Part shown: positions 20,231-54,848 of the stretch, piece after piece
Layout: every line of letters starts with the position of its first letter
Numbering within the stretch: position 1 is the stretch's first letter
The notes under the pieces: generated by a model
Databases searched by the model: none
What the model was told of the DNA's origin: nothing
Seen by the model: the letters and a program-made list of their open reading frames with translations, nothing else
Program-made: the position numbers and the translations under genes
Assembly (NCBI GenBank): GCA_022825265.1
Contig: JAJDXE010000006.1
Location: 20,923 to 84,922, forward strand
Direction of reading: 5' to 3'
Source of the DNA: Dehalococcoidia bacterium
GTDB taxonomy: Bacteria > Chloroflexota > Dehalococcoidia > Bin125
Length of the DNA: 64,000 nucleotides

Positions 20231-21093
20231 GTTGCCGGCCACTCCGCTCCGGTGATCTCGTTGGTGGCGTCCCAGAGGCGTTCGGCGGCTTGACGATCGG
20301 TGGCCTGTGGTTGCTGCTGGGTGCGGGTGTGGCGGTCGAAGTACTCGCCGGCGTCTGCGCGTCGGGCGGAGTCGGTGACAAGCTCGACGACCGGAGCGGC
20401 GCCCTCCTCGGGACTGCGCAGCAACGGCCGCAGGACGCGAAGACCGGCCCGCATCGGAGCGGGGAAGTTCTGCGCGAAATTGGTCGCCACGACGCCGGGG
20501 TGGACGGAGAAGGCGGCTAACCCGGCGTCGTGCGTGCGTCGATGCAGTTCGTTGGTGAATAGGATGTTGGCCAGCTTGGTCGCGCAATAGGGCCGAATTC
20601 CACCCCAGTAGTGCTCGAAGTTGAGGTCGTCCAGCGGCATCGCCTCGACGCGCTCATAGACGCGCGAGCTGACGTTGACGACTCGGGCATCGTCCGACTC
20701 AAGCAGCTTCGGCAGCAGCAGCGAGGTGAGCAGGACGTGCGAGAAGTGATTCGTCTGCATCATCGTCTCATGGCCGTCGCCGGTGAGCTGTCGGTCGTTG
20801 AGAGTGAGCCCCGCGTTGTTGACCAGGACATCGAGCCGTTCGGTGCGTTCCAGCAGTTCGTCGGCGGCTCGCCGGACGGAGGCAAACGAGGTCAGGTCCA
20901 TTTGCAGCAGTTCGACAGCGATGGAGCCGCTGTCCTTCTGGATCTGCGAGACGGCGGCCTGGCCGCGTTCGGGCGAGCGGGCGGCGGCGAAGACGTGCCA
21001 GCCGCGTCGCGCCAGGTCGGTGGCGGCCGCCTGACCGATGCCGCTGTTGGCTCCGGTGATGAGAACGGTCGGAGGTGTTGAGGGAGCGTTCAT
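20227..21093 (-). CDS. Short-chain dehydrogenase/reductase, retinol-dehydrogenase-like
   Basis: TGANSGIG, LVNNAG, NVSS, YCATK (YxxxK), HPGVV; ATG overlaps hpnA stop. Confidence 0.9.
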   Translation of the reverse strand: MNAPSTPPTVLITGANSGIGQAAATDLARRGWHVFAAARSPERGQAAVSQIQKDSGSIAVELLQMDLTSFASVRRAADELLERTERLDVLVNNAGLTLNDRQLTGDGHETMMQTNHFSHVLLTSLLLPKLLESDDARVVNVSSRVYERVEAMPLDDLNFEHYWGGIRPYCATKLANILFTNELHRRTHDAGLAAFSVHPGVVATNFAQNFPAPMRAGLRVLRPLLRSPEEGAAPVVELVTDSARRADAGEYFDRHTRTQQQPQATDRQAAERLWDATNEITGAEWPAT

Positions 21094-22091
21094 TGACGGA
21101 CTTTCTGAAACCAGGTCACCGCTTCTCGGAATGTCTCGTCCAGAGCGGTCTGCGGCAGTCGCAACTCTTCGATCGCCTTGCGGCAATCGAAGAACTGCTG
21201 TCGGCGGGCGAGCCGGACTCCCGCAATAGTCGCCCGTGGTTGCTGTCTGGTCAAAGCGCTGATCAGAAACTCATCGATCACCGCGGCTGCGAAGGCCACC
21301 GGTAATGGGAGCGCAATCCTCGGCAGCGAAGCGCCGCTCGATAACGCAGCGCATTCGATGATCTCGCGCAAGGTCAGATTGCCATCGCGGTGTCCGAGGA
21401 TGTAGCGCTCGCCGATGCGTCCGCGCTGGGCGGCCGCGACGTGTCCGGCGGCGACGTCGGAGACGTGGACGATGTTCAGGCCTGCGGACTTCATGTAGGC
21501 CGGCATGTCGCCGCTGGCTGCGTCGCGAATCAGGAATCCGGTGGGCGTTGGCTTGAGGTCCAAGGGGCCGATCGGGGCTGTAGGCAGGACGCAGACCGCG
21601 GGCAGAGACTCGGATTGGACCAGTTCGTGGACGAGCCGCTCACTGAGAATCTTGGTCTCCTCGTACGGTCCTGGTGCATCTTCGACAGTCGCCCACTGTG
21701 TTTCGTCGGCGGGCCTTGATGGGTCGAGAGGCGGTCCGACTGCGGCGACGGAAGACGTGTGCACGACGTGGTCGACCTGCGCCCGGAGCGCGGCCAGCAT
21801 TAGTTGCCGTGTGCCGTCGACGTTGGCACGATAAGCGTCCGCTCGGGCGCGTCGGCTGAGGTCGTAGCGGGCGGCGACGCTGAAGAGGGTGTCGACCCCT
21901 GCCAGTGCGTTGGCGAGCGAAGTCGGCTCGGTGAGGTCTCCGTGGACGATCTCGATCGGCAGCCCATCGAGGCTGCGTTGGTCGCTGCCCTCGCGGACCA
22001 TGGCCCGGACTTCGGCGCCCGCCTCGAGCGCGGCGCGGACGACATGAGCGCCGATGAACCCGTTGGCTCCTGTGACCAGAGCTCGCTTCAA
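21090..22091 (-). CDS. hpnA: Hopanoid-associated NAD-dependent epimerase/dehydratase
   Basis: VTGANGFIG, HTSSVA, YEETK, PIGPLDLKPTPTG; hopanoid context. Confidence 0.75.
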   Translation of the reverse strand: MKRALVTGANGFIGAHVVRAALEAGAEVRAMVREGSDQRSLDGLPIEIVHGDLTEPTSLANALAGVDTLFSVAARYDLSRRARADAYRANVDGTRQLMLAALRAQVDHVVHTSSVAAVGPPLDPSRPADETQWATVEDAPGPYEETKILSERLVHELVQSESLPAVCVLPTAPIGPLDLKPTPTGFLIRDAASGDMPAYMKSAGLNIVHVSDVAAGHVAAAQRGRIGERYILGHRDGNLTLREIIECAALSSGASLPRIALPLPVAFAAAVIDEFLISALTRQQPRATIAGVRLARRQQFFDCRKAIEELRLPQTALDETFREAVTWFQKVRQ

Positions 22092-22110
22092 GGGGATTCC
22101 GTAATCGGCG

Positions 22111-22803
22111 CTACGCGCCGTTCTCGCCGACGAGAGCGGGGATGATCAAGGTCATCGCTCGCTCCAGCTCCTGGATGGCCGATTGACGCTGGATGCCGAG
22201 TGAGACGAGCTCGGGCAGCAGGCCGGGACGGCGGATCGCGCCGACCGCGATGTCCAGGGCGGATGGCTTGCCTCGCCACTGGACGACCTCGTTGGGGATG
22301 TCGTCGTCGAGCGCATCCATCACGACGCGCACGCAGGCGAAGGGGATGTCCGCCGCGGCGCAGGCCTCGGCCCATTCTGCGTCTTCCATCTGGACGATTT
22401 CGGCGCCCGAGTCGGCAGCCTCGCGCTTTTCCGGCCTGGTGAACAGGATTTCCGGCGTGGTGATGCTGGTCACCGACTGCCAGAAGATGTCGGCCCGGTT
22501 GAGCAGGCGGATCGTTTGCTTGCGAAGCTGTTCGTCGGCCTCGAAGACTGCGCCGTCGGTCTGGCGGATGATGCTGGTCGGCAGGGTGATCGATGGCCGC
22601 CGCAAGGTGTTCGTCAGGCCGCCGGCGACGCCGATGCTGATCACCTGGGAAGGCGAGCGTTCCATCGTCTCCTCGGCCGCGTCTCGGGCACGCTGAGGCC
22701 CGACGCCGGAGGTGACGATCCGCACCCGTCCGCGCCCGGCGATCGCTTGTCCGGCGCGGGCGGCTTTCGCCTCCCAGGGAAGTGCAGCGGTGATCGTGAG
22801 CAT
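22111..22803 (-). CDS. hpnG: HpnG-like nucleoside phosphorylase (adenosylhopane nucleosidase)
   Basis: SGVG, SIGVAGGL, QME, PFACVRVVMD phosphorylase-fold motifs; adjacent to hpnA; divergent sequence. Confidence 0.6.
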   Translation of the reverse strand: MLTITAALPWEAKAARAGQAIAGRGRVRIVTSGVGPQRARDAAEETMERSPSQVISIGVAGGLTNTLRRPSITLPTSIIRQTDGAVFEADEQLRKQTIRLLNRADIFWQSVTSITTPEILFTRPEKREAADSGAEIVQMEDAEWAEACAAADIPFACVRVVMDALDDDIPNEVVQWRGKPSALDIAVGAIRRPGLLPELVSLGIQRQSAIQELERAMTLIIPALVGENGA

Positions 22804-22970
22804 GGGATTCAGTCTACGCCAGAGCCTGATCTGTCAGTCCCGCCTCCCACGGGTTATGCCATCCTCGACAGACCTGTGGCCGGCCGATCGCTGGGCGAAG
22901 ATGCACCGAGACGATGGGTAGACTGAGCTTTAGGCAAGACCCGGCCACACTCGAGCCGCGAGGATGATCC

Positions 22971-23756: not shown

Positions 23757-23803
23757 TTGAATAGGGCCGAGGGCGGCCCACCACATCGGTTGAGAGGTGC
23801 GCC

Positions 23804-25998: not shown

Positions 25999-26106
25999 GA
26001 CGATGCGCCAGTGCGGCCGAGGGCGCTGTTGATCGGAATTCTGGCAGAAGACGGCGATACTCGACCCCTGCCGGGGCAGGCTCGTGGACGGGCAGGAGCA
26101 GGTTGG

Positions 26107-27114
26107 TTAGCGGATCGAGCCGACGAAGCTGCGGAGGCCGGCCTTGAGGTTGGTGGTGGCGTCGATCACGGCGGAAGCTTCGTAGCCCGAGTGGACCATG
26201 CAGTCGACGCACTTGGGATTGCCCGAGGCGACGCCGTAGTTCTCCCACTCGGTCTCTTCGATCAACTCGTGCCAGCTTTCGGCGTAGCCCTCGTCCATCA
26301 GGTAGCAGGGCCGCTGCCAGCCGAAGACGGTGTAGGTCGGGTTGCCCCACGGCGTGCAGTCGTACTCGATCTCGCCCTTGAGGAAGTCGAGGAAGAGCTC
26401 GGAGTGATTGAACTTCCAGTGCCTGGGCGGGTCGTTGAGGATGTCGCGGAACAGATCCTTGGTCTGGTTGCGTGCCAGGAAGTGCTCCTGGTCGGGCGCC
26501 TTCTCATAGGGGTAGCCGGGCGAGATCATCAGGCCGTCGACGCCGATCTCCATCAGCTTGTCGAACATCATCCGGATGCGGTCCGGCTTGGCCCCGAGGA
26601 AAAAGGTGCTGTTCGTGGTCACCCGGAAGCCGCGCGCTTTAGCCGCCTCGATCGCCCGGATCGCGACGTCCCAGATGCCGTCACGGCAGACCGAATCGTC
26701 GTGGTCCTGTTCGTAGCCGTCGACGTGGACGGAGAAGGTCAGGTACGGGTTGGGCTCGAAGTCCTGCAGCTTGCGCTCCAGCAGGATCGCATTGGTGCAG
26801 AGGTAGACGAACTTCTTGCGCTCGGTGTAGCCGTTGGCGATCTCGACGATGTCCTTGTGGATCAGCGGCTCGCCGCCGGCGATCGCGACCACCGGCGCGC
26901 CGCATTCCTCAACCGCGTCCCAGCACTGCTGCGGCGTGAGGCGACGGCGGAGGATGTCGTTGGGGTGCTGGATCTTGCCGCAACCCGCGCACTCGAGGTT
27001 GCATTGCAGCAGCGGTTCGAGCATCAGCACGAGCGGGTAGCGCTCGGTCCGGCGCAGACGCTGGCCGACGACATACTTGCCGACCTGAATGGTTTGTCTC
27101 AGTGGTGTGGCCAT
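26107..27114 (-). CDS. hpnH: Adenosylhopane synthase, radical SAM
   Basis: YPLVLMLEPLLQCNLECAGCGKI, AGGEPLIH, CTPWGNPT, NPKCVDCMVHSGYE. Confidence 0.93.
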   Translation of the reverse strand: MATPLRQTIQVGKYVVGQRLRRTERYPLVLMLEPLLQCNLECAGCGKIQHPNDILRRRLTPQQCWDAVEECGAPVVAIAGGEPLIHKDIVEIANGYTERKKFVYLCTNAILLERKLQDFEPNPYLTFSVHVDGYEQDHDDSVCRDGIWDVAIRAIEAAKARGFRVTTNSTFFLGAKPDRIRMMFDKLMEIGVDGLMISPGYPYEKAPDQEHFLARNQTKDLFRDILNDPPRHWKFNHSELFLDFLKGEIEYDCTPWGNPTYTVFGWQRPCYLMDEGYAESWHELIEETEWENYGVASGNPKCVDCMVHSGYEASAVIDATTNLKAGLRSFVGSIR

Positions 27115-27162
27115 CAGTCGTCCACCCTATCTGGTGGGAGTCTGGTTACCTGGTGAACGTCC

Positions 27163-27225
27163 CGTCATTCCCGCCGAGGCGGGAATCTCGACCCACCAGC
27201 GCGCGGCCAAAGCTGCGCGAGATTC
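27163..27225. repeat. CGTC-family REP with partial inverted partner (degenerate REPIN)
   Basis: CGTCATTCCCGCCGAGGCGGGAATCTCG (27163-27190) and partial inverse CGAGATTC (27218-27225). Confidence 0.65.
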
Positions 27226-27241
27226 TTGCACCTGTTGCAGT

Positions 27242-27832
27242 TTAGAGGAGTTCTAGCGCGCGCTGGTATGCGTCGGGAGTGTTGAGGTTGAGCGTCACGA
27301 TCGGGTTGTCCATCTCCACGAAGATAGTGCGATCCGCATGGCGGCGTCTGAGTTGCCGTAGACCTTCCAGGCGTTCTGTCACGTTCTGTAGTTCGGTCAG
27401 CACCGCGGAGCGGAAGATCGGCGGATGGCCGTTGCGTCCCTCGTGTCGGGGGACGGCGATCAGCGCCTCGGGAGCTGCTGCAAGCTCTGACTCAAGCACC
27501 TCGATTACCGAAGCCTCTGTCGGTTGGTCCACCGAGACGACCACCGCCGCATCAACGCCGGACGGGACCGCGCGAGCGCCGGTCCGGATCGAGGAGGCGC
27601 GGCCTGATCGCCAGTTGCGGTTGGTCGTGATCTGGACATCGGCGCGAGCCGGCAACGTTGGTCGGACCCGGCTGGCGTGCGCGCCCAGCACCACGACGAC
27701 CGGGCGGCAGCCCGCAGCGAGCAGGGTCGCGGTCTGAGCGGCGACGAGAGGCTGACCCTGCCAGTCGAGCAGCTGTTTCGGCCGACCCATTCGGGTCGAT
27801 TCACCGGCGGCGAGGAGGATGGCGGCGATCAT
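27242..27832 (-). CDS. MocA-like nucleotidyltransferase
   Basis: ILLAAGESTRMGRPKQLL, SVDQP, NGHPPIF, NLNTPDAY; alternative start 27844. Confidence 0.85.
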   Translation of the reverse strand: MIAAILLAAGESTRMGRPKQLLDWQGQPLVAAQTATLLAAGCRPVVVVLGAHASRVRPTLPARADVQITTNRNWRSGRASSIRTGARAVPSGVDAAVVVSVDQPTEASVIEVLESELAAAPEALIAVPRHEGRNGHPPIFRSAVLTELQNVTERLEGLRQLRRRHADRTIFVEMDNPIVTLNLNTPDAYQRALELL

Positions 27833-28451
27833 TGGGCTGGGCATCGTCGAAACGGTCGCGGAGCCTGCGGAAGAGGCGTCGGACGGCGTCTTCCACGTGG
27901 TCGACGGCGGTGGGATCGGTCAGGTCGCCGACACCGTAGGGCTGGGCCTCGGAGCGGGCGGTTTGGGCGGCGAGATCGATGATCCGGTCGTTGAGCGCGC
28001 GGCCCCGGACGACCGATTCAATCTGGCGGGCGCGAATCGGATGCGGCGCAATCCCGACCAGCATGACCGCGGCGTCTCCGTTCTGGGAGAGTCGCGCGGC
28101 GGCGCTCACTGTGGGATCGGCCTTGGCCGCCGCCATCGCCGTCTGCGCGCCCCTGGGCAGGCGCGGGACGCAGAGCTGTTCGGCCGAGACCGCGCCGTCT
28201 CGACCGTCGACATCGACGCCGCCGTCGGCCAGCAGACGTTCGTCGACTCGCGCGGTATCGCCGTCCGAGAGGGTGAGATACGCGTCCAGCACGATCAACG
28301 CGGCAGCCAGGGCGTTCTGCTGAGGGTCTTCGAGGCAGATGCGGATCGTGGAGACGGAGTCGCCGATCGCGAACCAGTCGTTGAGAGTGTTCTCACCCGT
28401 GCTCTGTAGGTCAAGCACCGTGTGGTGCAGCGGCAGACGACGCTCGCTCAC
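27801..28451 (-). CDS. Shortened CoxM/XdhB-like FAD-subunit homolog, possibly degenerate
   Basis: ALAAALIVLDAYLTL and VGIAPHPIRARQIESVVRGRAL...AAQTA resemble the molybdo-hydroxylase medium subunit; N-terminal AGG motif absent; ATGA-coupled to iscU. Confidence 0.5.
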   Translation of the reverse strand: MSERRLPLHHTVLDLQSTGENTLNDWFAIGDSVSTIRICLEDPQQNALAAALIVLDAYLTLSDGDTARVDERLLADGGVDVDGRDGAVSAEQLCVPRLPRGAQTAMAAAKADPTVSAAARLSQNGDAAVMLVGIAPHPIRARQIESVVRGRALNDRIIDLAAQTARSEAQPYGVGDLTDPTAVDHVEDAVRRLFRRLRDRFDDAQPNDRRHPPRRR

Positions 28452-28852
28452 GCGGAGAGGTCCGAGGAAGCGCGCTCGCGGTAATCCGCCAGCGCCTTCT
28501 TGAGCGCGGCTGCGGCGAGCACCGAGCAGTGAATCTTGGCCTTGGGCAAGCCGCCGACGGCGTCGACGAAATCCTGCCGCTTGAGTTTGGCCGCCTCGTC
28601 AATCTTCATGTCGCTGAGCACAACGGTCGCCATGCTGCTGGTCGCAATCGCGGCCGGGCAGCCTCGAGTCTGGAAACGGGCTTCGGCGATGGCGTCGTTC
28701 TGGATCCGCAGCATCAGCTTCATGTGGTCGCCGCAGACCGGATTGCGGTCCTCACCGACCGCGTTGGCGTCCTCGAGCAGACCGGCGTTGCGAGGATGCT
28801 GGAAGTGATCGATCACGATCTCGCTGTAGGCGCGCAGGTCTTCGGTCGGCAT
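28448..28852 (-). CDS. iscU: IscU/NifU-like Fe-S scaffold
   Basis: YSEIVIDHFQHPRN, NPVCGD, GCPAAIA, KIHCS. Confidence 0.9.
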   Translation of the reverse strand: MPTEDLRAYSEIVIDHFQHPRNAGLLEDANAVGEDRNPVCGDHMKLMLRIQNDAIAEARFQTRGCPAAIATSSMATVVLSDMKIDEAAKLKRQDFVDAVGGLPKAKIHCSVLAAAALKKALADYRERASSDLSA

Positions 28853-28890
28853 GGGTTCAGTCTAGTCACGGCTGGTCAGGCCCAGTCACG

Positions 28891-31732: not shown

Positions 31733-32254
31733 CTACTCGCCGAGGACTCCCAGCACTGTCACACTGACGCGGCGGTCGCGCGCTTCGTCGAGCTCGACCA
31801 GGAAGATCGATTGGAACTCGCCAATGTGCAGCTCGCCGCTGAGCACGGGAATCGTCTCGGACGTACCCAGCATCATGTGCTGGACGTGCGAGTGGCCGTT
31901 CTCAGGCTCGTTCTCGTGCATGTTGACAGTGCGGATGTCGAAGTCGTTGTGGCGGTAGTAGATACCGGGCGGACCCCATGCGATCAACCGATCGCGCAGG
32001 TCGTCGAGGAGCAGTGGTTCGTGCTCCTGCAGGATGATGGCAGCGGTCGTGTGCTGTGAGAACACGGATACCTGACCAAAACCCACACCGGAGCGGTTAA
32101 CGATCTCTCGCACCTCTTCGGTAATGTCACGGAACCACGGGCCATCCTCCGTTCGGTAACGGAGTTCGTCGTGTACGTGACGGAAGGCGTTGGCAGGCAA
32201 AGCGCTGTTCGTCCCAGCCCCATCCACACTGCGCAGGGCTGTCGCGTTGGCCAT
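31733..32254 (-). CDS. yjbQ: YjbQ/UPF0047 protein
   Basis: SQHTTAAI, YRHND, NGHSH, LGTSETIP, IFLVELD. Confidence 0.85.
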   Translation of the reverse strand: MANATALRSVDGAGTNSALPANAFRHVHDELRYRTEDGPWFRDITEEVREIVNRSGVGFGQVSVFSQHTTAAIILQEHEPLLLDDLRDRLIAWGPPGIYYRHNDFDIRTVNMHENEPENGHSHVQHMMLGTSETIPVLSGELHIGEFQSIFLVELDEARDRRVSVTVLGVLGE

Positions 32255-42387: not shown

Positions 42388-42396
42388 GCGCGGTCG

Positions 42397-47070: not shown

Positions 47071-47446
47071 TCGCCTCTGCCTCGATCTCGACGATCATTT
47101 CAGGGTCCACCAGACCCCTGACCTCGACCAACGTCGATGTCGGCGGAGCGTCGGCAAACGCAGCGCGCAGATGCTCGCCCATCGACTCGGTTTGGTCGAT
47201 GTCGGTGATGTACATGCGAAGCCGAACGACATCGGCGAGCGACCCGCCGAGTTCCTCGAGCGCAGCCTCGATGATTGCCAGGCAGCGAGCGGTCTGAGGG
47301 CCGGCGCCACCCGGGGTGACGCTACCGTCGTCCTCGACCGCCGCCGTTCCGCTGACATGAATCAGATTGCCAACGCGCAGCGCCCGGCAATAGGCGAAGC
47401 GCGTTTCAAACTCCGGATTCGAGTGGCTCCGCCGTCGGTTGGTCAT
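47039..47446 (-). CDS. RidA-family protein
   Basis: [38 protein letters not shown]; ATGA-coupled to hpnE. Confidence 0.88.
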
Positions 47447-48849
47447 CTCGATTGAACCGGTCTTTCTAGCAACGCCCGAGCGGCCGCTCGGCCGCTGCGC
47501 ACGGCCGACTCCATCGTGGCCGGCCAACCGGTCGCCGTCCAGGCGCCGGCGAGTACGAGGTTGCGGATTGACGTGCGCGCCGGCACGCGATGCGCATTCA
47601 TCCCCGGCGTTGGCCGGAACGTGGCCTCTGCCTCCTTGACCACCCGAGTCGCGAGCAGGTTCGCGCCCGCCGTCCGCCGCAACGCACGCCGAACCGCACG
47701 CTCGACCCGCTCAACGATCACTTGCTGCGGCAAATCAACCAGGTTGTGCGCCCCACTCAGCGAGACCGAAATCCAATGCGGCGGCGTCTGCCAACCGTGA
47801 ATCTGGGATCGGTGGAAGATGAACTGCGCATCGGGATCGAGCACGGCGACAAAGTCCCGACGCATCACCCGCCGATCCCATTGCATGTGTACGTTGATGA
47901 TCGGGCTGACCTCGTGCTGGCTCAGTCGCCAGAACGGCTCACGCCGTCGCCAGGCGGCCGGCACCAGGTTGAAGGCCGCCTGTGGAGGCAGGGCGATGAC
48001 GACCGCGCTCACATCTGCCTGCTGGCCGCGCCCATAGCGCACCGCGGCGGCGTCCCCACCGTGCATCACGATGGCGCTCGCGTTGCCGTTCAACTCAACC
48101 CGTGCTCCTCGCTCGCGCAGCCGATCCAGCGCGGCATGCGCGACCTGGCCCAGTCCCCGAGTGAACAGGCCAATGTCGGCTGCGCCCGTATCACGGCTGA
48201 ATCCCTCCTGAAAGACCTGGATCGCCTGCGTTGCCGACACGTCGGAACAGTGATCATTGCAAGTCGGCAAAACAATCAGGTCCCAGAACCGCTCGATCAC
48301 GCGTTCGGTCTGATGGTGATTGAGCAGCCAAGTCTCAAATGACAGCCGATCGAGCGCCAGCCGCTCAAGTTCGCTCATCCTGCGAATCGGCTCAAAGGCA
48401 AAGGCAAGCCGCGTCTTCTCGGCCAAGGTCAGGTGCTCGTACGTCACCATCGAAGGAAACATATGCAGCGGAGCCGGCAACAGCTGCAGTCCCAACCGAG
48501 ACAACACGCTCGGCTGCTTCGATGAAATCACGCTGACATGATGACCGCGCGAGTCCGGGTCAATCACCGCAACCTCGAGGTTGTCCTGGTAGCGCACAAT
48601 GTCGGCGCAGCCAATCCGTTCAAGGAAGGCCTGGAATTCGGTGCAGCAGCGCATCGTGATGTGCTGCCCGTTGTCGAGGATCACCTCGTGCTTCGGATCC
48701 TCAAATGAGTAGGCCTTGCCACCGACGAACGGTCGGCGCTCGAACAAGGCCACATTGCGACCGGCGTCAACCAGTTCCAGCGCAGCGCTGAGACCGGCAA
48801 GCCCGCCTCCAATGACGGCGATCGGAGCCTCGACACCGTAGTCGGTCAC
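47443..48849 (-). CDS. hpnE: Hydroxysqualene dehydroxylase
   Basis: VIGGGLAG, LDNGQH, GWPATMESAVRSG; follows hpnCD. Confidence 0.88.
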   Translation of the reverse strand: MTDYGVEAPIAVIGGGLAGLSAALELVDAGRNVALFERRPFVGGKAYSFEDPKHEVILDNGQHITMRCCTEFQAFLERIGCADIVRYQDNLEVAVIDPDSRGHHVSVISSKQPSVLSRLGLQLLPAPLHMFPSMVTYEHLTLAEKTRLAFAFEPIRRMSELERLALDRLSFETWLLNHHQTERVIERFWDLIVLPTCNDHCSDVSATQAIQVFQEGFSRDTGAADIGLFTRGLGQVAHAALDRLRERGARVELNGNASAIVMHGGDAAAVRYGRGQQADVSAVVIALPPQAAFNLVPAAWRRREPFWRLSQHEVSPIINVHMQWDRRVMRRDFVAVLDPDAQFIFHRSQIHGWQTPPHWISVSLSGAHNLVDLPQQVIVERVERAVRRALRRTAGANLLATRVVKEAEATFRPTPGMNAHRVPARTSIRNLVLAGAWTATGWPATMESAVRSGRAAARALLERPVQSR

Positions 48850-48856
48850 GGCGGCG

Positions 48857-49762
48857 TCAGCCGATGCGGGCGACGTTAGGCATCGCGCCCATCAACCAGA
48901 GTTCCAACATCCGAACCACGCGACCCACCTTGGACGGCGACACCCGCTGGCTGTAGACGTCATACTCACGCTCGACGATCGCGTCGAGAATCATCCGGTA
49001 CACGCCCTGCAGTCCATTGCAGCAAGCACGGCTGCGCGGTCCGTCGAGCAACGGGATCAGGCGGTCGCCCTCGCGATAGAAGGCATAGGCGCGCTGGGCG
49101 TAGTCGGCCATCAGGTTGCGGAAGGGCTCGCCGTAGACGTTGCCGAGAATGTCCTCATCGCTGAGACCGTGCAGATCCAGATCTTCCTGAGCGAGATAGA
49201 TCCGCCCGCGCTCGGCGTCTTCCTTGACGTCGCGCATGATGTTGGTGATTTGCAGTGCCTTGCCCATCGCCACCGCAGAACTGATCGCGCGCTGCGTATG
49301 CGAGCGGTCGTAGCCAAAGATGCAGATGCAGATCAACCCGATCACCGAGGCGGCCCGGTAGCAATATTGCTCCAAATCAGCCCAGGTTTCATAGCGCGTA
49401 TAGGTCAGGTCGTGCTCCATCCCGAGCACAAGTTCCTCAAAGTGGTCCCGCGGAATGTCGTAACGCTCGATCGCGTCGGCCAGACCCATCGTCAACCACG
49501 ACGGTTCGGCGGCGCCGCCGTTGTAGGCAGCGTGCAACAGGTCGTGAGCCTGATTCAGGGCCGCCGCACGCTCCTCCTGCGTGCCGGCGTCGTCGACCGC
49601 GTCGTCAACTGTCCCAGCATAAGCGTAGGCAGCGTAGATCGCCTGCCGCTTGTGGCGGGGCAACGCCGAGAAGGCGATGTAGAAATTGGTCGCCCGGCGA
49701 CGTGTAAACGCCTGGCATGCTTGGTAGGCCTCGGCGACCTGTGGATCGAGACGTCGTTGCAT
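48857..49762 (-). CDS. hpnD: Presqualene diphosphate synthase
   Basis: NFYIAF, TVDDAVD, YCYRAAS, QITNIMRDVKED, RIYL. Confidence 0.85.
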   Translation of the reverse strand: MQRRLDPQVAEAYQACQAFTRRRATNFYIAFSALPRHKRQAIYAAYAYAGTVDDAVDDAGTQEERAAALNQAHDLLHAAYNGGAAEPSWLTMGLADAIERYDIPRDHFEELVLGMEHDLTYTRYETWADLEQYCYRAASVIGLICICIFGYDRSHTQRAISSAVAMGKALQITNIMRDVKEDAERGRIYLAQEDLDLHGLSDEDILGNVYGEPFRNLMADYAQRAYAFYREGDRLIPLLDGPRSRACCNGLQGVYRMILDAIVEREYDVYSQRVSPSKVGRVVRMLELWLMGAMPNVARIG

Positions 49763-49769
49763 GATGGCG

Positions 49770-50699
49770 TCAGGTTAGTTTGAGTTGGATTGCCGCGCGC
49801 AAGGCCAACCAGGCTCGGGTGCTCTTGCCAACCCTGGGACGCCTCGTCAGCGTGTCGTAGTCCTGATGCTCGATCGCCTTGAGCACCGCTCGGCCTCCAT
49901 CGGTGAACAGACGCAGATCGATCGCCAGCTCCGGTGGAACCTCGTCAATCAGCCGCTCGCCCTTTCGGAACCAGGCCTCCGCGCGATCAACCTGGAAGCG
50001 CATCATCGTTCGATATGCGTCGGGGCACTGACGCTCGCGAATCGCCTCAGCAACCTCCTCTTCCGACAGACCGAAGCCGTTCAGCTCCTCTAGCGGCAGG
50101 TACATCCGCCCGGCGTCGAGATAGTCGCGTCGCACGTCTTGCCAGTGATTGGCGATCTGCAGCGCAGTGCACGTCGCATCGGACAAATCCCGCCGATACT
50201 GGCCTTCGTCGGTCCCGGTGTCGATATCCCACAGCGCCAGCACCATCTCGCCGACCGGATTGGCCGAGAGGTCGCAGTACGCAAGCACGTCCTGGAAGGT
50301 CTCATAGCGAGACTTGTGCTGATCGAGCCGATTTGCCTCAATCAGCCGGCGAAACGGATCAACGCGCAGCGGCTTGGACTCGGCCACGTGTTGCAAAGCG
50401 ACGTTGATCGGGTGTTGCGGCTGAGAGCCGTCAAAGCCCCGCTCCAGGTCTGCCTGCCAGGTGTCCAGCCGCTCAAGTCGCTCATGCGGCTCGGCGTCGG
50501 GATCGTCGCCGAGGTTGTCCGTGAAGCGGCAGAATGCGTAGACCGCGAACATCGGCGCGCGCAGTTCGCGGGGCAGAAACCAGCTGACGACGGTGAAGTT
50601 CTCACTGTGCCGCCGGGTGTATCGCTGACACCAGCGTAGCGCGTCGACCGAGTCGCCGGCGAACGCGCTGTCCGGGGTACCCTGCTTGCTGAGGCTCAT
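49770..50699 (-). CDS. hpnC: Hydroxysqualene synthase
   Basis: HSENFTVVSWFLP, YCDLSANPVGEMVL, ALQIANHWQDV. Confidence 0.9.
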   Translation of the reverse strand: MSLSKQGTPDSAFAGDSVDALRWCQRYTRRHSENFTVVSWFLPRELRAPMFAVYAFCRFTDNLGDDPDAEPHERLERLDTWQADLERGFDGSQPQHPINVALQHVAESKPLRVDPFRRLIEANRLDQHKSRYETFQDVLAYCDLSANPVGEMVLALWDIDTGTDEGQYRRDLSDATCTALQIANHWQDVRRDYLDAGRMYLPLEELNGFGLSEEEVAEAIRERQCPDAYRTMMRFQVDRAEAWFRKGERLIDEVPPELAIDLRLFTDGGRAVLKAIEHQDYDTLTRRPRVGKSTRAWLALRAAIQLKLT

Positions 50700-50723
50700 C
50701 GGCGTGCGGCGCCTGTGTACTTC

Positions 50724-50963
50724 CTAGTCGTTCTCAAGGTCCGCCGGGTCGAGGATCCGGAAGCCGACGCCAAGCTTGACCTGGAACCAGCCGATCTCGC
50801 CGTCCTGGATCGGTCCGCGGATCTCGCGGACCTCAAACCAGTCGAGGTTCTTGAGCGTCTCTCCGGCCCGCTCGATCGCATTGCGGATCGCCTGGTCCAC
50901 GCCATCCGGCGAGGAGCCCACGAGCTCAATGATCTTGTACGTGTGGTCTCGATGTTCCGCCAT
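50724..50963 (-). CDS. Dodecin flavin-binding protein
   Basis: HTYKIIELVGSS, AIRNAIERA, LDWFEV, FQVKLGVGF; ATG 50963 behind GGAGG. Confidence 0.92.
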   Translation of the reverse strand: MAEHRDHTYKIIELVGSSPDGVDQAIRNAIERAGETLKNLDWFEVREIRGPIQDGEIGWFQVKLGVGFRILDPADLEND

Positions 50964-50991
50964 TCCGTCCTCCAGTTCCATCTTCCGCGCG

Positions 50992-51687
50992 TTATCCCGC
51001 TCCGAGTTCGTGATCAAGGATCTCGTAGCAGGCCCAGCAGAGCTGCTTGCCCTGCATTGGGATCAGGGTGAGTACCGGCTGACCACACTCCTCGCAGATC
51101 AGCCGCTGTTTGGTGTCGAAACGCATCACCACGAGGTCATGGAGTTCGCCGTCGGCCGAGGCGACATGGCGCGTCAGCACCGCGTCCTCGACGAAACCGA
51201 GACGCTCGAAAATCTTCCGCGCCCCAACCTGATCCGGAGTCATCTGAGCGATGATCTTGGCCACGTCGTCGGTCAGCGCGCCCTCGAAGGCAAGCCCGAG
51301 CAGAATATGGCCCAGTCCCAGTCGTCGTGCGCTGACATCGACCATCACGCGGATCTCAGCCACATGGCGGGTCCAACGCAACCGCCCTCGTTCGATCGTC
51401 GCATAGCCGATGATCTGCTGGTTCTCCTCGGCCACGACCGAGCGAATCCGACCGGCCTCGCTCTCGTGGATCCAGTCGCCGATATCGGCAACGTTGGTGA
51501 TATCGCGCTCCTGGAAGAGGAGATCCTCATTCGGCTGCCGGCGGCCAAACTCGAGCAACGCGTTGCCATCGTCGCTGGCCAGGTAGCGGAGCCGAATCGT
51601 GTGTCCACCGTGCCGGAGGTCAAGGGGTAGCTGCCGCATCTCTATCTCGGCATTTGCGCTTGGCGTCGTGCCTGGCGTCGTCATCAT
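50992..51687 (-). CDS. GNAT acetyltransferase with C-terminal CxxC-x16-CxxC zinc ribbon
   Basis: RHVAEIRVMV, RRLGLG, FERLGF, then CEEC...CWAC; ATG 51687 behind GGAGG. Confidence 0.8.
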   Translation of the reverse strand: MMTTPGTTPSANAEIEMRQLPLDLRHGGHTIRLRYLASDDGNALLEFGRRQPNEDLLFQERDITNVADIGDWIHESEAGRIRSVVAEENQQIIGYATIERGRLRWTRHVAEIRVMVDVSARRLGLGHILLGLAFEGALTDDVAKIIAQMTPDQVGARKIFERLGFVEDAVLTRHVASADGELHDLVVMRFDTKQRLICEECGQPVLTLIPMQGKQLCWACYEILDHELGAG

Positions 51688-51775
51688 GCTTCCCCCCTCC
51701 CCTGCTCTCAATGCTACGCAGGTGAATTGGCATGGTAGCTGTTCAAAATGGTTTCCAGATCGACACAAACACTGT

Positions 51776-51804
51776 GCAGTCGCAAACCCGATTGGTGCGA
51801 CTGC
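51776..51804 (-). terminator. Hairpin downstream of shc
   Basis: GCAGTCGCA / TGCGACTGC 9-bp stem, followed by a T-rich tract on the minus strand. Confidence 0.45.
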
Positions 51805-51854
51805 CTCCTGGCCAACGTCAGAACGAACCGGCCGGAACCAAGAAGACGGTTCGC

Positions 51855-53789
51855 CTATCGAGGCGCGATCGCCTGTTCGTAGCGTCCCAGTGCCATCAGG
51901 GGGAAATAGTGACGGTAGAGGTGATAGTTGATCATGAAGTCGCCGGGGAATCCGGTGCCGGTGAATTCCGGCTCGTCCCAGGTGCCGTCCTCCCGCTGCC
52001 GCTCGACGAGATACTGCACGCCCCGCGCGACCGACTCATGCTCCGCCTCTCCGGCCGCGATCAGCGCCATCAGGGCCCACGCCGTTTGTGACGGTGTGGA
52101 GGGTCCCAGACCGCGCAGCGACGGGTCGGCATAAGTGTCGCAGGATTCACCCCAGCCTCCGTCCTCGAGCTGGTGGCGGAAGAGCCACTCGATCGCGTTG
52201 CGCACCGGAGGCGCAGACATCGACTCGCCCAGCGTCTTGAGCGCTGGCAGCGCCGCGCCCAGGCCGTAGATGTAGTTGACGCCCCATCGGCCCCACCACG
52301 AACCATCCGGCTCCTGCAACTCGTACAGGAAGCGCAGGCCGCGGCTGGCGGGCGGATACTGGCCGCTGTAGCCAAGCTGGCCGATGTACTCGAGCGCATG
52401 AGCCGTGACATCGGCGGTCGGCGGATCGAGCAGCTCGCCGAAGTCGGCGAAGGGAATGTCCGCCAGAAAGGTCTTGTCGTTGTCCACGTCGAACGCGCCC
52501 CAGCCGCCGTTCGAGGACTGCATCGAGAGCATCCAGTGCAACCCTTGATCGAGAGCAAGCTGCCGCTCCGACTCCAGACCTGGCATCGGAATGCGCTCCA
52601 GGGCCATCAGCACGACGGCGGTGTCATCAACGTCCGGATAGATGTCGTTGTCGAACTCGAATGCCCAGCCGCCTGGCGGCGTATCCGGATTCTTGACCTG
52701 CCAGTCGCCGCCGCTCAGTACCTGCTCGCGCAGCATCCAGCGGGCTGCGCGCTGCAGAACCGGGTGCTGCGGATCGAGTCCCGTGTCCAGCAGACCGACC
52801 GCGGCCAGGCAGGTGTCCCACACCGGGGACTGGCAACTCTCCGTCCAGATCTGTTCGCCCTCGCGATCGACCTGGTTCCAGGTGAAGCGTTCAAATCCCG
52901 CGAGCGCTCGTCGGATGACCGGATGGTCCAGCGAGTAGCCCATCGCCCGCAGTGCAAGGATCGCGTAGACCCAGGGAGGTTGAATCCCCCCCCAACAACC
53001 GTCGGCCTCCTGCCGGTCAAGCAGCCAGCGCTCCGAAAACGCAAGCGCGCGATGCTCGAACGGTCGGATGCGGTTGCGGTCCAGGAACCGAAGCAGCGAG
53101 TCGACGACATAAAACACGCCCTTTGCCGACAACGGATTCTTCGGCGGCGGCACAGCGAACCGTCGCCGGTCCGACGGCTTGACCCACAGCTCTGGCACGC
53201 CCGCGCCGGCCGGCAACGCGGCCGTCGGCCGAAGCGTCATGATCACCGTGATTCCGACGATCGTCGCCCGAGCCCAGCTCGCAAACTCATACAGATTGAT
53301 CGGCAGCCATGAGGGCAGCAGATTGATCCAGGGCGGCATCGCCGGCAGACGATCCCAGTCGAACTCGCCGAACATCGCCAGCCAGATCTTGGTGAACACG
53401 CGCGCCTTGACGATCCCACCCTGCTCCAGAATCCACTCGCGGGCCCGCGTCATGTGCGGCGAGTCGGGATCGTCACCGGCCAGCTTGAGCGCGAAGTAGG
53501 ACTCAACCGAGGTCGAGACGTCTCCGGGACCGTTCAGGTATTGCGCCCAGAACCCCTCCGGCCGCTGTTGCGCCCTGATGTAGCGCGCAATCCCGTCCCA
53601 TTGCTGTCGATCACCAATGCCCAGGTGATGCGTCAACAGCAGGTACTCGGACGAGATCGACGGGTTCGATTCCAACTCGCCCCACCAGAACCCGGCCGGG
53701 TCTTGCTGTTCGATCAGCCAGTCGGTAGCCCGCCTGATCGATCTCGACAGAGCGCTGTCGGCGACCGATTGAGGTCTGACAGTCGTCAT
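51855..53789 (-). CDS. shc: Squalene-hopene cyclase
   Basis: YPDVDDTA (DxDD) motif; QW repeats (QDPAGFW, QRPEGFW, QEADGCW, QSSNGGW, QEPDGSW, QLEDGGW, QREDGTW); SQTAWAL. Confidence 0.96.
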   Translation of the reverse strand: MTTVRPQSVADSALSRSIRRATDWLIEQQDPAGFWWGELESNPSISSEYLLLTHHLGIGDRQQWDGIARYIRAQQRPEGFWAQYLNGPGDVSTSVESYFALKLAGDDPDSPHMTRAREWILEQGGIVKARVFTKIWLAMFGEFDWDRLPAMPPWINLLPSWLPINLYEFASWARATIVGITVIMTLRPTAALPAGAGVPELWVKPSDRRRFAVPPPKNPLSAKGVFYVVDSLLRFLDRNRIRPFEHRALAFSERWLLDRQEADGCWGGIQPPWVYAILALRAMGYSLDHPVIRRALAGFERFTWNQVDREGEQIWTESCQSPVWDTCLAAVGLLDTGLDPQHPVLQRAARWMLREQVLSGGDWQVKNPDTPPGGWAFEFDNDIYPDVDDTAVVLMALERIPMPGLESERQLALDQGLHWMLSMQSSNGGWGAFDVDNDKTFLADIPFADFGELLDPPTADVTAHALEYIGQLGYSGQYPPASRGLRFLYELQEPDGSWWGRWGVNYIYGLGAALPALKTLGESMSAPPVRNAIEWLFRHQLEDGGWGESCDTYADPSLRGLGPSTPSQTAWALMALIAAGEAEHESVARGVQYLVERQREDGTWDEPEFTGTGFPGDFMINYHLYRHYFPLMALGRYEQAIAPR

Positions 53790-53798
53790 GCGCGCACG

Positions 53799-54848
53799 TT
53801 AGCGATCACGCTCGAGCGTGAAGAGCGCCAGCGCTTCCAGGTCGGCCACTGCTTCTGCGCGTGGCTTGGCCGATTCCATTTCGACGCGAAAGGCTTCATA
53901 CTCTACCCGCGCCGCCTGGTCAGTCACCTGATCGGCGCCGATCTCATCGAGCAGATTGTGCACCCAGTCGACCTGCTCCTCCGGCAGATCATCACCACCG
54001 CCGAGTTCCGAGCGGTAGATCTCCATCAACTCGCGCCTCGCCTCTGCGGGAGCATTGCCCAGGGTGTACAGAATCGGATACGACTTCTTCCGCCGGCGGA
54101 TGTCGGCGTCGGTCGGCTTGCCCAGAGCGTCCGGGTCGGCCCAGATGCCGAGCCAGTCATCGCGCATCTGAAAGCATCTCCCGAGCCGTTTGCCGGCGCG
54201 ATCGAGCGCGTCGGCCTGCTCGGACGATGCGCCGGCCAGCGTCGCGCCGATCGACAGCGACACGCCCATCATCGCTCCGGTCTTGCGCTCGACCATGGCG
54301 AGGTATTCGTCCACCGCAACGTCCGTGCGCTGCTCGAAGGTCAGGTCGAGGTATTGTCCTTCGATCATCAGCATCGTCGCCCGGTTGAGGCGTCGCACCG
54401 CTTCGATCACGGATTCAGGACTCGCACCATGCAGCAGCGGGCGCCGCAAGGCCGCATCGGCCAGCTCGCGCATCAGATCGCCGGTGTTGATCGCCTGGGC
54501 CACGCCCCAGATCTTCCAGACGGTCGGCCGGCCGCGACGCTCGACATCGCCGTCCTGGACATCGTCGTGGACCAGAGAAAAGTTGTGGACGATCTCGACT
54601 GCGGCCGCCCCGGCACTCGCGCGCTTGAGCGCGTCCGGATCGTCCGTAATCGCTTCAGCACCCAGCATCGTCAACGCAGCCCGAGCGCCCTTGCCCGACG
54701 CGTTCGCAGGATTCCCCTGCTCATCCAGCCAGCCAAGCGCGTAGCGAGCCATGTCGTAGATCGGTAAGTCGACATCCGGAAACGCAGCCCGCATCTCCGT
54801 CTGCACGGCCTCGTGATAGCGGGTCAGAGCAACAGGAGTGGCGATCAT
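53799..54848 (-). CDS. Short-chain polyprenyl diphosphate synthase (FPP/GGPP)
   Basis: HNFSLVHDDVQD first Asp-rich motif with Phe at -5, RRGRPT, GQYLD, KTG, FQMRDD; ATG 54848 overlaps fur stop. Confidence 0.9.
   Translation of the reverse strand: MIATPVALTRYHEAVQTEMRAAFPDVDLPIYDMARYALGWLDEQGNPANASGKGARAALTMLGAEAITDDPDALKRASAGAAAVEIVHNFSLVHDDVQDGDVERRGRPTVWKIWGVAQAINTGDLMRELADAALRRPLLHGASPESVIEAVRRLNRATMLMIEGQYLDLTFEQRTDVAVDEYLAMVERKTGAMMGVSLSIGATLAGASSEQADALDRAGKRLGRCFQMRDDWLGIWADPDALGKPTDADIRRRKKSYPILYTLGNAPAEARRELMEIYRSELGGGDDLPEEQVDWVHNLLDEIGADQVTDQAARVEYEAFRVEMESAKPRAEAVADLEALALFTLERDR

What the first reader, a model, noticed from the sequence alone, without database searches (positions are those of the whole stretch)
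21090..54848. Complete C30 and core C35 hopanoid pathway scattered in four blocks in a probable Dehalococcoidia genome
Seen: polyprenyl synthase+shc, hpnC-D-E, hpnH, and hpnG-hpnA, all on the minus strand over 34 kb, interleaved with unrelated genes, with catalytic motifs intact. Known: these genes suffice for squalene, hopene, adenosylhopane and ribosylhopane; hopanoids are best known from Proteobacteria, Cyanobacteria, Planctomycetota, Acidobacteriota and some Gram-positives. Inference: if the host is SAR202-like, it would be an under-recognised source of hopanoid biomarkers. The fragmented layout suggests long residence rather than a recent island.
Basis: partly seen in the sequence, partly recalled or inferred. 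Interest (0 to 1): 0.7.

Follow-up and report, generated by a model that had tools for sequence, protein, structure and literature searches.

The report
Hopanoid lipid genes in sponge Dehalococcoidia
An uncultured sponge-dwelling Chloroflexota bacterium (class Dehalococcoidia) carries a real, long-resident set of genes for hopanoid membrane lipids. The pathway itself is ordinary; its only interest is that it adds an abundant sponge symbiont group to the little-noticed hopanoid producers.

Summary
The window has polyprenyl synthase+shc, hpnC-D-E, hpnH and hpnG-hpnA, all on the minus strand, with catalytic motifs intact.

Two corrections:
- There are three blocks, not four. shc and hpnC are separated only by two small co-directional genes (a GNAT and a dodecin), so ids-shc-GNAT-dodecin-hpnCDE is one tightly packed unit.
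- The host is not SAR202 in the strict sense. All 20 genes flanking shc are colinear with, and 63-98% identical to, sponge MAGs of GTDB order "bin125" (Dehalococcoidia). These come from Aplysina, Rhopaloeides and Ircinia.

The contig is not chimeric and the genes are not an island. The split layout recurs in a 2.34-Mb relative, and a deeper relative has the two halves at least 225 kb apart. SAR202-type Dehalococcoidia (order UBA3495) carry one compact cluster instead: ids-hpnH-hpnG-hpnA-shc-yjbQ-hpnCDE.

The likely products are diploptene/diplopterol and adenosyl-/ribosylhopane-derived C35 hopanoids. This is inferred, not shown.

SHC in Chloroflexi is already listed in genome surveys and annotated by NCBI, so this is a new member of a known kind. 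Interest is about 0.35.

The parts
54845..55282 (-). Fur-family regulator (145 aa). Its stop overlaps the ids start. It is probably the first or second gene of the same transcription unit (cobAT-PD40-Fur-ids-shc...).
   Evidence: Pfam FUR, 100.8 bits. NCBIfam Fur/PerR-type, below cutoffs. Gene calls of L001. Conserved at this position in relatives.
53799..54848 (-). Polyprenyl diphosphate synthase (ids), 9 bp upstream of shc. Presumed supplier of farnesyl diphosphate. Chain length is not established.
   Evidence: PF00348, 199 bits. Best NCBIfam matches are the encapsulin-cargo and IdsB GGPP-synthase types, below their cutoffs. DDVQD and RDDWLG motifs. ids-shc adjacency also occurs in Actinomycetes and other Dehalococcoidia.
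51855..53789 (-). Squalene-hopene cyclase (shc/hpnF).
   Evidence: TIGR01507, 766 bits vs cutoff 431. 647 bits to the A. acidocaldarius SHC structure 1GSZ. DVDD motif, and 26 of 29 active-site residues identical. The 3 differences are the common state in relatives, including Streptomyces.
50992..51687 (-). GNAT acetyltransferase inserted between shc and hpnC. Role unknown. Specific to the window's subclade.
   Evidence: Pfam Acetyltransf_1. Gene call in L001. Present in L002-L018 and L021, absent in L019, L020 and L022.
50724..50981 (-). Dodecin (flavin-storage protein), 24 bp upstream of hpnC. Specific to the window's subclade.
   Evidence: NCBIfam DodecBact, 110 bits vs cutoff 75. L001 gene call. 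Synteny.
49770..50699 (-). hpnC (hydroxysqualene synthase).
   Evidence: TIGR03464, 286 bits vs cutoff 250. Asp-rich motifs.
48857..49762 (-). hpnD (presqualene diphosphate synthase).
   Evidence: TIGR03465 is the best hit at 243 bits, below the cutoff of 279. Lies between hpnC and hpnE with 7-bp gaps.
47443..48849 (-). hpnE (hydroxysqualene dehydroxylase, FAD-dependent).
   Evidence: TIGR03467, 375 bits vs cutoff 283. GGGLAG dinucleotide-binding motif.
31733..32254 (-). yjbQ (UPF0047). Hopanoid-linked by context only. Homologues lie between shc and hpnC in compact Dehalococcoidia clusters and beside shc in Bipolaricaulota. Here it heads the conserved array that ends in hpnH.
   Evidence: TIGR00149, 89 bits vs cutoff 68. 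tblastn: 47-56% identical copies between shc and hpnC in L023, L027, L029, L039, L046, L050, L052, L053, L055 and L061, and near shc in L025, L028, L031-L034 and L036. Same array in L082 and L084.
26107..27114 (-). hpnH (radical-SAM adenosylhopane synthase). Last gene of a conserved array: M20 peptidase-NifU-CoxM-like-MocA-hpnH.
   Evidence: TIGR03470, 514 bits vs cutoff 225. CNLECAGC at 38-45. Same upstream array in two relatives.
22111..22803 (-). hpnG-like nucleoside phosphorylase/nucleosidase (adenosylhopane to ribosylhopane). A divergent member of the family.
   Evidence: TIGR03468 is the best hit at 116 bits, below the cutoff of 187. MTAN-like SGVG, AGG, QME and VMD motifs. Lies directly between hpnH and hpnA in L084 and in compact clusters.
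21090..22091 (-). hpnA (hopanoid-associated extended SDR / 'sugar epimerase'). Biochemical role unknown.
   Evidence: TIGR03466, 359 bits vs cutoff 368. GANGFIG and YEETK motifs. hpnG-hpnA adjacency is conserved.
20227..21093 (-). Classical SDR oxidoreductase, translationally coupled to hpnA (ATGA overlap). Candidate accessory reductase. Found only in the window's subclade.
   Evidence: NCBIfam PRK06197-type, 217 bits vs cutoff 268. caATGAac junction. Same coupling in L082. Absent after hpnA in L084.

Best explanation
The window comes from an uncultured, sponge-associated Chloroflexota bacterium (class Dehalococcoidia, GTDB order 'bin125'). It carries a vertically inherited, probably functional hopanoid pathway, split into three chromosomal blocks.

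Proposed pathway:
1. ids supplies a prenyl diphosphate, presumably FPP.
2. HpnD, HpnC and HpnE turn it into squalene via presqualene diphosphate and hydroxysqualene.
3. SHC cyclises squalene to diploptene/diplopterol (C30).
4. The radical-SAM enzyme HpnH adds a 5'-deoxyadenosyl group to give adenosylhopane.
5. The HpnG-like nucleosidase/phosphorylase removes adenine to give (phospho)ribosylhopane.
6. A still unknown reductase would convert this to bacteriohopanetetrol-type C35 lipids.

What is shown: the presence, integrity, family assignment and conserved synteny of the genes.

What is inferred: the products, the chain length made by ids, and the roles of HpnA, the hpnA-coupled SDR, YjbQ, the GNAT and the dodecin.

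The split layout is old. The shc-hpnCDE half and the hpnH-hpnG-hpnA half were already apart in the clade's deeper branches. Later insertions (GNAT+dodecin; ECH+glyoxalase-like+mgtE) fragmented them further.
For: Gene identities and motifs.

Host:
- In one search, all 20 genes flanking shc over about 22 kb are colinear in 18 species-level MAGs labelled Dehalococcoidia/Chloroflexi. Non-hopanoid genes are 63-98% identical at the protein level in the nearest of them (L002-L009, L015, L016, L021).
- These MAGs include MPNM01 bin125 and RHO3_bin_68. Robbins 2021 classifies the latter as c__Dehalococcoidia;o__bin125, GC 64.6%. The window is 62-68% GC.
- Sequencing runs that hold the window are sponge metagenomes.

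Long residence:
- In a 2.34-Mb relative, shc and hpnH are 22.9 kb apart on the same strand, with the same neighbours. The window has 24.7 kb.
- In a 2.56-Mb deeper relative, hpnH-hpnG-hpnA are contiguous, and ids-shc-hpnCD lie at least 225 kb away.
- GC and GC3 of the hpn genes are like those of their neighbours.

SHC tree: the window sits in a 22-species Dehalococcoidia clade with SH-aLRT 100.

Weak sign of transcription: one sponge metatranscriptome has 188-213-nt contigs, 97-99.5% identical to shc, hpnC and hpnE of bin125.
Against: - There are no lipid data and no heterologous expression, so the products are inferred.
- HpnG (116 vs 187 bits), HpnD (243 vs 279) and HpnA (359 vs 368) score below NCBIfam's curated cutoffs.
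- The best family matches of ids are GGPP-synthase types, not FPP synthase.
The MEP pathway, hpnN and the side-chain tailoring genes are therefore unknown.
- Order-level placement rests on synteny and identity to classified MAGs, not on a marker-gene phylogeny of this genome.
- The RNA signal is tiny and could be DNA carry-over.
Confidence: 0.85

Rival explanations
1. Only the C30 branch works. The hpnG-like and hpnA genes are general nucleoside or sugar enzymes that merely sit near hpnH, so the organism makes hopene or adenosylhopane but no ribosylhopane/BHT-type lipids.
For: HpnG scores 116 bits against a cutoff of 187, and HpnA 359 against 368. In the window hpnG is 3.3 kb from hpnH, with opposite-strand genes between them.
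Against: In a deeper clade member and in all compact Dehalococcoidia clusters, hpnH-hpnG-hpnA are directly contiguous. The HpnG family is the best match, and the MTAN-type catalytic Glu and Asp are kept.
Confidence: 0.08
2. The hopanoid genes are a recent horizontally acquired island, or the contig is a chimera that joins a hopanoid producer to a Chloroflexota genome.
For: On the SHC tree, Chloroflexota sequences fall in at least three separate clades, one next to Bipolaricaulota and one next to Actinomycetes. So ancient transfers among phyla are possible.
Against: The genes on both sides of each block are conserved in order and identity across 18 or more species, including near-complete chromosomes. 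Composition is uniform. Several independent sponge DNA runs cover the block evenly at up to 99% or more identity.
Confidence: 0.02
3. The cyclase makes a non-hopane triterpenoid, for example a tetrahymanol-like or partly cyclised product.
For: No product data exist. Three of the 29 checked active-site residues differ from the Alicyclobacillus enzyme.
Against: Those three states (S/T41, F420, I607) are shared by nearly all 80 relatives, including the Streptomyces, Pseudonocardia and Geobacteraceae SHCs. TIGR01507 scores 766 bits, against 212 for tetrahymanol synthase and 265 for oxidosqualene cyclase. Linkage with hpnH argues for a hopene substrate.
Confidence: 0.04
4. The host is a pelagic SAR202 bacterium, so the finding bears on open-ocean hopanoid budgets.
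For: NCBI labels relatives only as 'Dehalococcoidia bacterium'. Gene content (esterases, beta-lactamase-family hydrolases, F420 genes, luciferase-like monooxygenase) resembles that of SAR202.
Against: The nearest genomes are sponge MAGs of order bin125. Slaby 2017 lists bin125 apart from the SAR202 bins. The runs holding the window are sponge metagenomes or host-labelled samples. SAR202-type genomes (o__UBA3495; 'SAR202 cluster bacterium') have a different, compact cluster, and their SHC is only 46-52% identical.
Confidence: 0.03

Closest known systems
Streptomyces coelicolor hopanoid cluster (SCO6759-6771) and other actinomycete clusters (hpnC-hpnD-hpnE-ids-shc-hpnH)
   Same: Same enzyme set: HpnCDE squalene route, a dedicated polyprenyl synthase directly upstream of shc, HpnH, and an HpnG-type nucleosidase that makes ribosylhopane. 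The ids has the same Terrabacteria-type second Asp-rich motif ending in Gly (assignment to the Terrabacteria type is from memory). ids-shc adjacency is seen in all actinomycete loci.
   Different: Here the set is split into three blocks over 34 kb. No hpnO-type aminotransferase is seen in the window. A GNAT and a dodecin lie inside the shc-hpnC junction. SHC is only about 50% identical.
Compact hopanoid operon of SAR202-type / UBA3495 Dehalococcoidia (e.g. RHO3_bin_54, 'SAR202 cluster bacterium' VGZT01)
   Same: Same phylum and class, and the same gene inventory including hpnG, hpnA and a linked yjbQ.
   Different: Those genomes keep one contiguous operon, ids-hpnH-hpnG-hpnA-shc-yjbQ-hpnC-hpnD-hpnE. 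Their SHC is 46-52% identical and forms a separate clade on the tree.
Canonical proteobacterial hpn clusters (Zymomonas, Rhodopseudomonas palustris TIE-1, Burkholderia cenocepacia)
   Same: Same core chemistry: HpnC/D/E, SHC, HpnH, HpnG and HpnA. The families were defined on these clusters (TIGR03464-03470).
   Different: The window has no hpnN transporter, no hpnI/J/K, no hpnO and no hpnP/hpnR. The rest of the genome was not searchable. The host's envelope type is unknown.

Membership tests
Squalene-hopene cyclase (TIGR01507) | Full-length match above the curated cutoff, with both cyclase domains | tested here: met
   766 bits vs cutoff 431. PF13249 and PF13243 are both full length.
Squalene-hopene cyclase (TIGR01507) | DXDD protonation motif and the aromatic active-site lining of the A. 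acidocaldarius enzyme | tested here: met
   DVDD at 386-389. 26 of 29 key residues are identical, and the other three are the usual state in relatives.
Squalene-hopene cyclase (TIGR01507) | Product is hopene/diplopterol | not testable with these tools
   Needs heterologous expression and GC-MS.
HpnCDE squalene route | Three adjacent genes, each matching HpnC, HpnD and HpnE above cutoff | tested here: inconclusive
   HpnC 286 vs 250 and HpnE 375 vs 283 are met. HpnD, at 243 vs 279, is the best hit but below the cutoff. The genes are adjacent with 7-bp gaps.
HpnH adenosylhopane synthase (TIGR03470) | Match above cutoff, radical-SAM CX3CX2C motif, DUF3463 C-terminal domain | tested here: met
   514 bits vs cutoff 225. 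CNLECAGC. Homologues carry PF04055+PF11946.
HpnG hopanoid-associated phosphorylase (TIGR03468) | Match above the curated cutoff | tested here: not met
   116 bits vs cutoff 187. It is still the best-scoring family. Context supports the same role: it is adjacent to hpnA and contiguous with hpnH in relatives. The conserved MTAN-type Glu and Asp also support it.
HpnA hopanoid-associated SDR (TIGR03466) | Match above the curated cutoff, NAD-binding GxxGxxG, YxxxK | tested here: inconclusive
   359 bits vs cutoff 368, marginally below. GANGFIG and YEETK are present.
   The nearest syntenic genomes are o__bin125. bin125 is listed apart from the SAR202 bins by Slaby 2017. No marker-gene tree of this genome could be made.
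Genomic island / recent transfer | Deviant composition, mobility genes, patchy presence among close relatives | tested here: not met
   GC is uniform at 62-68%, and GC3 is typical. The genes sit at the same sites in 18-22 related species.
Extended hopanoid tailoring (HpnI/J/K, HpnO, HpnP, HpnR, HpnN) | Presence of these genes in the genome | not testable with these tools

The most novel reading that the evidence does not exclude
Dehalococcoidia of order bin125 are among the most abundant symbionts of high-microbial-abundance sponges; bin125 had the highest coverage of all bins in Aplysina aerophoba. They may be the in-situ producers of the hopanoids long isolated from sponges such as Plakortis. 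The clade-conserved partners without an assigned role are YjbQ, the hpnA-coupled SDR and HpnA itself. They may include the still unknown enzyme(s) that convert ribosylhopane into bacteriohopanetetrol.
Probability: 0.2. Interest if true: 0.6.

Novelty: new member of a known kind. Interest (0 to 1): 0.35.

Why it matters
Hopanes are among the most abundant molecular fossils, and reading them depends on knowing who makes hopanoids. Chloroflexota appear only as a line in genome surveys, and no Chloroflexota lipid evidence turned up in the literature searched.

This analysis shows that a whole order of abundant sponge symbionts has kept a complete C30 pathway plus the core C35 pathway over long evolutionary time. 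SAR202-type relatives keep a compact version of the same set.

That gives lipid chemists a concrete target group, both for sponge-derived hopanoids and for marine Dehalococcoidia in general. It also provides comparative layouts (yjbQ, the coupled SDR) that could help find the missing side-chain reductase. In itself, the pathway is textbook.

Tried and rejected
1. Whole-genome steps were impossible.

2. The window has no tRNA genes or standard marker genes. Host placement therefore had to rest on synteny and identity to classified MAGs.

3. The RNA search for the window's own shc returned only runs of unknown type. When laid, these covered genes and spacers evenly and had contigs up to 180 kb, so they are DNA. 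They give no expression evidence for this species.

4. The idea that the hpnA-coupled SDR is a clade-wide partner was weakened. It is present in the window and in a relative with 86% SHC identity. It is absent after hpnA in a deeper member. The SDRs next to hpnH in Tepidiformaceae-type clusters are only 27-30% identical.

5. The 292-aa radical-SAM gene at 9044-9922 was checked as a possible hopanoid methylase (HpnP/HpnR/HpnJ). It is a PA0069/Rv2578c-type protein, not one of those.

6. The Y420F and L607I differences in SHC were considered as hints of a different product. This was rejected because they are the majority state in relatives.

7. A literature search for the sample codes found nothing relevant. 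The source study is inferred to be Kelly et al. 2022 from the isolate names of the nearest MAGs (jk18x...) and the 'KELL22' record label. This is not proven.
Full report
**Observation**

| Gene | Coordinates | Family | Score vs cutoff |
|---|---|---|---|
| ids (polyprenyl synthase) | 53799-54848 | PF00348 | 199 bits |
| shc | 51855-53789 | TIGR01507 | 766 vs 431 |
| hpnC | 49770-50699 | TIGR03464 | 286 vs 250 |
| hpnD | 48857-49762 | TIGR03465 | 243 vs 279 |
| hpnE | 47443-48849 | TIGR03467 | 375 vs 283 |
| hpnH | 26107-27114 | TIGR03470 | 514 vs 225 |
| hpnG | 22111-22803 | TIGR03468 | 116 vs 187 |
| hpnA | 21090-22091 | TIGR03466 | 359 vs 368 |

HpnD, HpnG and HpnA match their families best but fall below the curated cutoffs.

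The catalytic motifs are intact:
- SHC aligns over its whole length with the Alicyclobacillus acidocaldarius structure 1GSZ (647 bits). It keeps DVDD (386-389) and 26 of 29 active-site or proton-relay residues that I checked.
- The three differences (T41S, Y420F, L607I) are the majority state in 80 relatives, including Streptomyces, so they are ordinary.
- HpnH has CNLECAGC. HpnC and HpnD have their Asp-rich pairs. HpnE has an FAD-type GGGLAG. ids has DDVQD and RDDWLG.
- HpnG keeps the SGVG, AGG, QME and VMD elements of MTA/SAH nucleosidases.

**Anatomy: three blocks, not four**

Gene calls on an identical ENA scaffold show that the space between shc and hpnC holds two small genes on the same strand. 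One is a GNAT acetyltransferase (50992-51687). The other is a dodecin (50724-50981; NCBIfam DodecBact, 110 vs 75 bits).

In the shc block the gaps are 9 bp (ids-shc), 167 bp, 10 bp, 24 bp, 7 bp and 7 bp. A Fur-family gene (54845-55282) overlaps the ids start. So Fur-ids-shc-GNAT-dodecin-hpnC-hpnD-hpnE is one tightly packed unit.

hpnH is the last gene of a packed array: M20 peptidase-NifU-CoxM-like-MocA-hpnH. Between hpnH and hpnG-hpnA lie 3.3 kb holding mgtE and two opposite-strand genes, a glyoxalase-like gene and an enoyl-CoA hydratase (ECH).

The stop codon of hpnA overlaps the start of a classical SDR gene (caATGAac).

**Host**

Host placement therefore rests on relatives.

- A scan of one genome per GTDB species with SHC found 22 species-level MAGs at 68-94% identity. 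All are labelled Dehalococcoidia or Chloroflexi/Chloroflexota.
- In 18 of them, the whole 22-kb neighbourhood is colinear with the window. Its order is carboxylesterase, two beta-lactamase-family genes, cyclase, macro domain, cobalamin adenosyltransferase, PD40, Fur, ids, shc, GNAT, dodecin, hpnCDE, arfB, permease, hydrolase, two SRPBCC genes and cofE. In the nearest of these genomes the non-hopanoid genes are 63-98% identical.
- These genomes include 'Chloroflexi bacterium bin125' from Aplysina aerophoba and RHO3_bin_68 from Rhopaloeides odorabile.
- Robbins et al. 2021 classify RHO3_bin_68 as p__Chloroflexota; c__Dehalococcoidia; o__bin125; f__bin125; g__bin125, with 64.6% GC. The window has 62-68% GC.
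- Slaby et al. 2017 list bin125 simply as Chloroflexi, next to other bins they call SAR202. It had the highest coverage of their table, 757x.
- Public runs that hold the window are sponge metagenomes and host-labelled samples.

The host is therefore a sponge-associated Dehalococcoidia of order bin125, not SAR202 in the strict sense. The record label and the nearest isolate names point to the Caribbean Ircinia data of Kelly et al. 2022, but this is an inference.

**Not chimeric, not an island, and old**

Colinearity on both sides of every block excludes a chimeric contig.

- In a 2.34-Mb contig of a relative (SHC 86%, HpnH 90%), shc and hpnH lie 22.9 kb apart on the same strand; the window has 24.7 kb. 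hpnH is followed by the same glyoxalase-like, ECH, hpnG, hpnA and SDR genes.
- In a deeper member (SHC 70%, HpnH 72%; 2.56-Mb contig), yjbQ ... M20-NifU-CoxM-MocA-hpnH-hpnG-hpnA are contiguous. ids-shc-hpnC-hpnD lie at least 225 kb away.
- The three genomes with SHC at 68% identity keep ids-shc-hpnCDE but lack the GNAT and the dodecin.
- By contrast, Dehalococcoidia of the SAR202 type have one compact operon, ids-hpnH-hpnG-hpnA-shc-yjbQ-hpnC-hpnD-hpnE. Examples are RHO3_bin_54 (o__UBA3495) and a 'SAR202 cluster bacterium'.

The simplest history has three steps. First came a split into an shc half and an hpnH half early in the bin125-type lineage. Later the GNAT and dodecin were inserted in one half. 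ECH, the glyoxalase-like gene and mgtE were inserted in the other.

**Phylogeny**

In a maximum-likelihood SHC tree of 81 sequences:
- The window falls in the 22-species clade (SH-aLRT 100).
- That clade is sister to a few other Chloroflexota sequences, and then to Bipolaricaulota.
- The UBA3495/SAR202-type SHCs form a separate clade, weakly joined to the Actinomycetes.
- Tepidiformaceae-type sequences form a third clade.

Deep branches are weakly supported. One origin or several within the phylum cannot be decided.

**Mechanism**

From established knowledge of the families, the pathway runs as follows:
1. HpnD makes presqualene diphosphate from FPP.
2. HpnC makes hydroxysqualene.
3. HpnE makes squalene.
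4. SHC makes diploptene and diplopterol.
5. HpnH adds 5'-deoxyadenosyl to give adenosylhopane.
6. HpnG removes adenine to give ribosylhopane.
7. The step to bacteriohopanetetrol has no assigned enzyme.

All of this is inferred for this organism. The best family matches of ids are GGPP-synthase types below their cutoffs, so its product length is open.

Genes without an assigned role that are linked by context:
- **yjbQ.** Copies 47-56% identical sit between shc and hpnC in all compact Dehalococcoidia clusters and beside shc in Bipolaricaulota.
- **hpnA.**
- **The hpnA-coupled SDR.** It occurs only in the window's subclade.

**Expression**

Runs found for the window's own shc are DNA.

For the bin125 genome, one small sponge metatranscriptome (filed twice) contains 188-213-nt contigs that are 97-99.5% identical to its PD40, shc, hpnC and hpnE genes. 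This is a weak sign of transcription and could be DNA carry-over.

**What is known**

- Santana-Molina et al. 2020 list Chloroflexi among 31 phyla with SHC, and among phyla with HpnCDE.
- Version 2 (2026) of the Lawrence et al. preprint notes 'lower levels of SHC conservation' in chloroflexota. Its first version does not mention the phylum.
- NCBI already names these proteins squalene-hopene cyclase and HpnH in Dehalococcoidia MAGs.
- The sponge Chloroflexi genome papers I could search do not mention hopanoids. Bayer 2018 only counts 'terpene' clusters in SAR202 bins.
- SAR202 papers discuss hopanoids as substrates, not products.
- Sponges such as Plakortis simplex contain large amounts of methylated hopanoids attributed to unknown symbionts.

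**Verdict**

The pathway is textbook and the phylum-level presence is known.

What is new is the assignment to an abundant sponge-symbiont order, the documented old split of the cluster, and the comparative context. This is a new member of a known kind, with interest of about 0.35.

Noticed in passing
window 54845-55282 (-): A Fur/PerR-family regulator gene overlaps the start of ids. It follows PD40 and cobalamin-adenosyltransferase genes with gaps of 5-7 bp, so the hopanoid block may be transcribed together with a metal- or peroxide-sensing regulator. The arrangement is conserved in relatives.
   Followed up: partly
window 50724-51687 (-): A GNAT acetyltransferase (weak ArsN1-like match) and a dodecin flavin-storage gene are wedged between shc and hpnC. 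This occurs only in the subclade with SHC at 78% identity or more. A dodecin next to the FAD enzyme HpnE is suggestive, but the link is untested.
   Followed up: partly
window 31733-32254 (-); L023, L027, L029, L039, L046, L050, L052, L053, L055, L061 at about 12.0-12.7 kb: YjbQ (UPF0047) homologues sit between shc and hpnC in every compact Dehalococcoidia hopanoid operon examined, and near shc in Bipolaricaulota. In the window's clade, yjbQ travels with the hpnH half instead.
   Followed up: yes
window 20227-21093 (-): A classical SDR (PRK06197-like) starts inside the hpnA stop codon (ATGA overlap). This makes it a candidate for the unassigned ribosylhopane reductase. However, it is missing after hpnA in a deeper clade member.
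   Followed up: partly
window 27242-30057 (-): hpnH is the terminal gene of a conserved array: M20 peptidase, NifU-type Fe-S scaffold, CoxM-like flavoprotein fragment and MocA-like nucleotidyltransferase. An Fe-S scaffold gene so close to a radical-SAM enzyme may not be accidental.
   Followed up: no
L035 (JAPOVI01, 'Acidobacteria bacterium COS1_bin_16') and L030 ('Thermotogaceae'): Two MAGs labelled as other phyla carry SHCs nested inside the Chloroflexota and Bipolaricaulota clades. This points to mis-binning, mislabelling or recent transfer.
   Followed up: no
window 7888-9024, 13766-15295, 59148-63256: The window is rich in paralogous hydrolases: three beta-lactamase-family genes, two carboxylesterases and large amidohydrolases. 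It also has F420-related and luciferase-like monooxygenase genes. This is the recalcitrant-organic-matter gene profile described for SAR202 and sponge Chloroflexi.
   Followed up: no
PMC9531527 (Kelly et al. 2022), likely source study: That paper reports sterol-synthesis genes (LSS/ERG7, CYP51, ERG24) in Dehalococcoidia MAGs from the same Ircinia sponges, but does not mention hopanoids. Sponge Dehalococcoidia may therefore include both sterol-type and hopanoid-type triterpenoid producers.
   Followed up: no
L001 (ENA scaffold_413, 88.6 kb) vs window: Mapping the coordinates shows that the identical ENA scaffold would end near window position 10183. The window must therefore come from a second, longer assembly of the same organism.
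   Followed up: partly
runs X24 and X25: Two runs, one labelled metatranscriptomic and one transcriptomic, are filed under different studies. They have the same size and identical contigs, so they are one data set filed twice.
   Followed up: no
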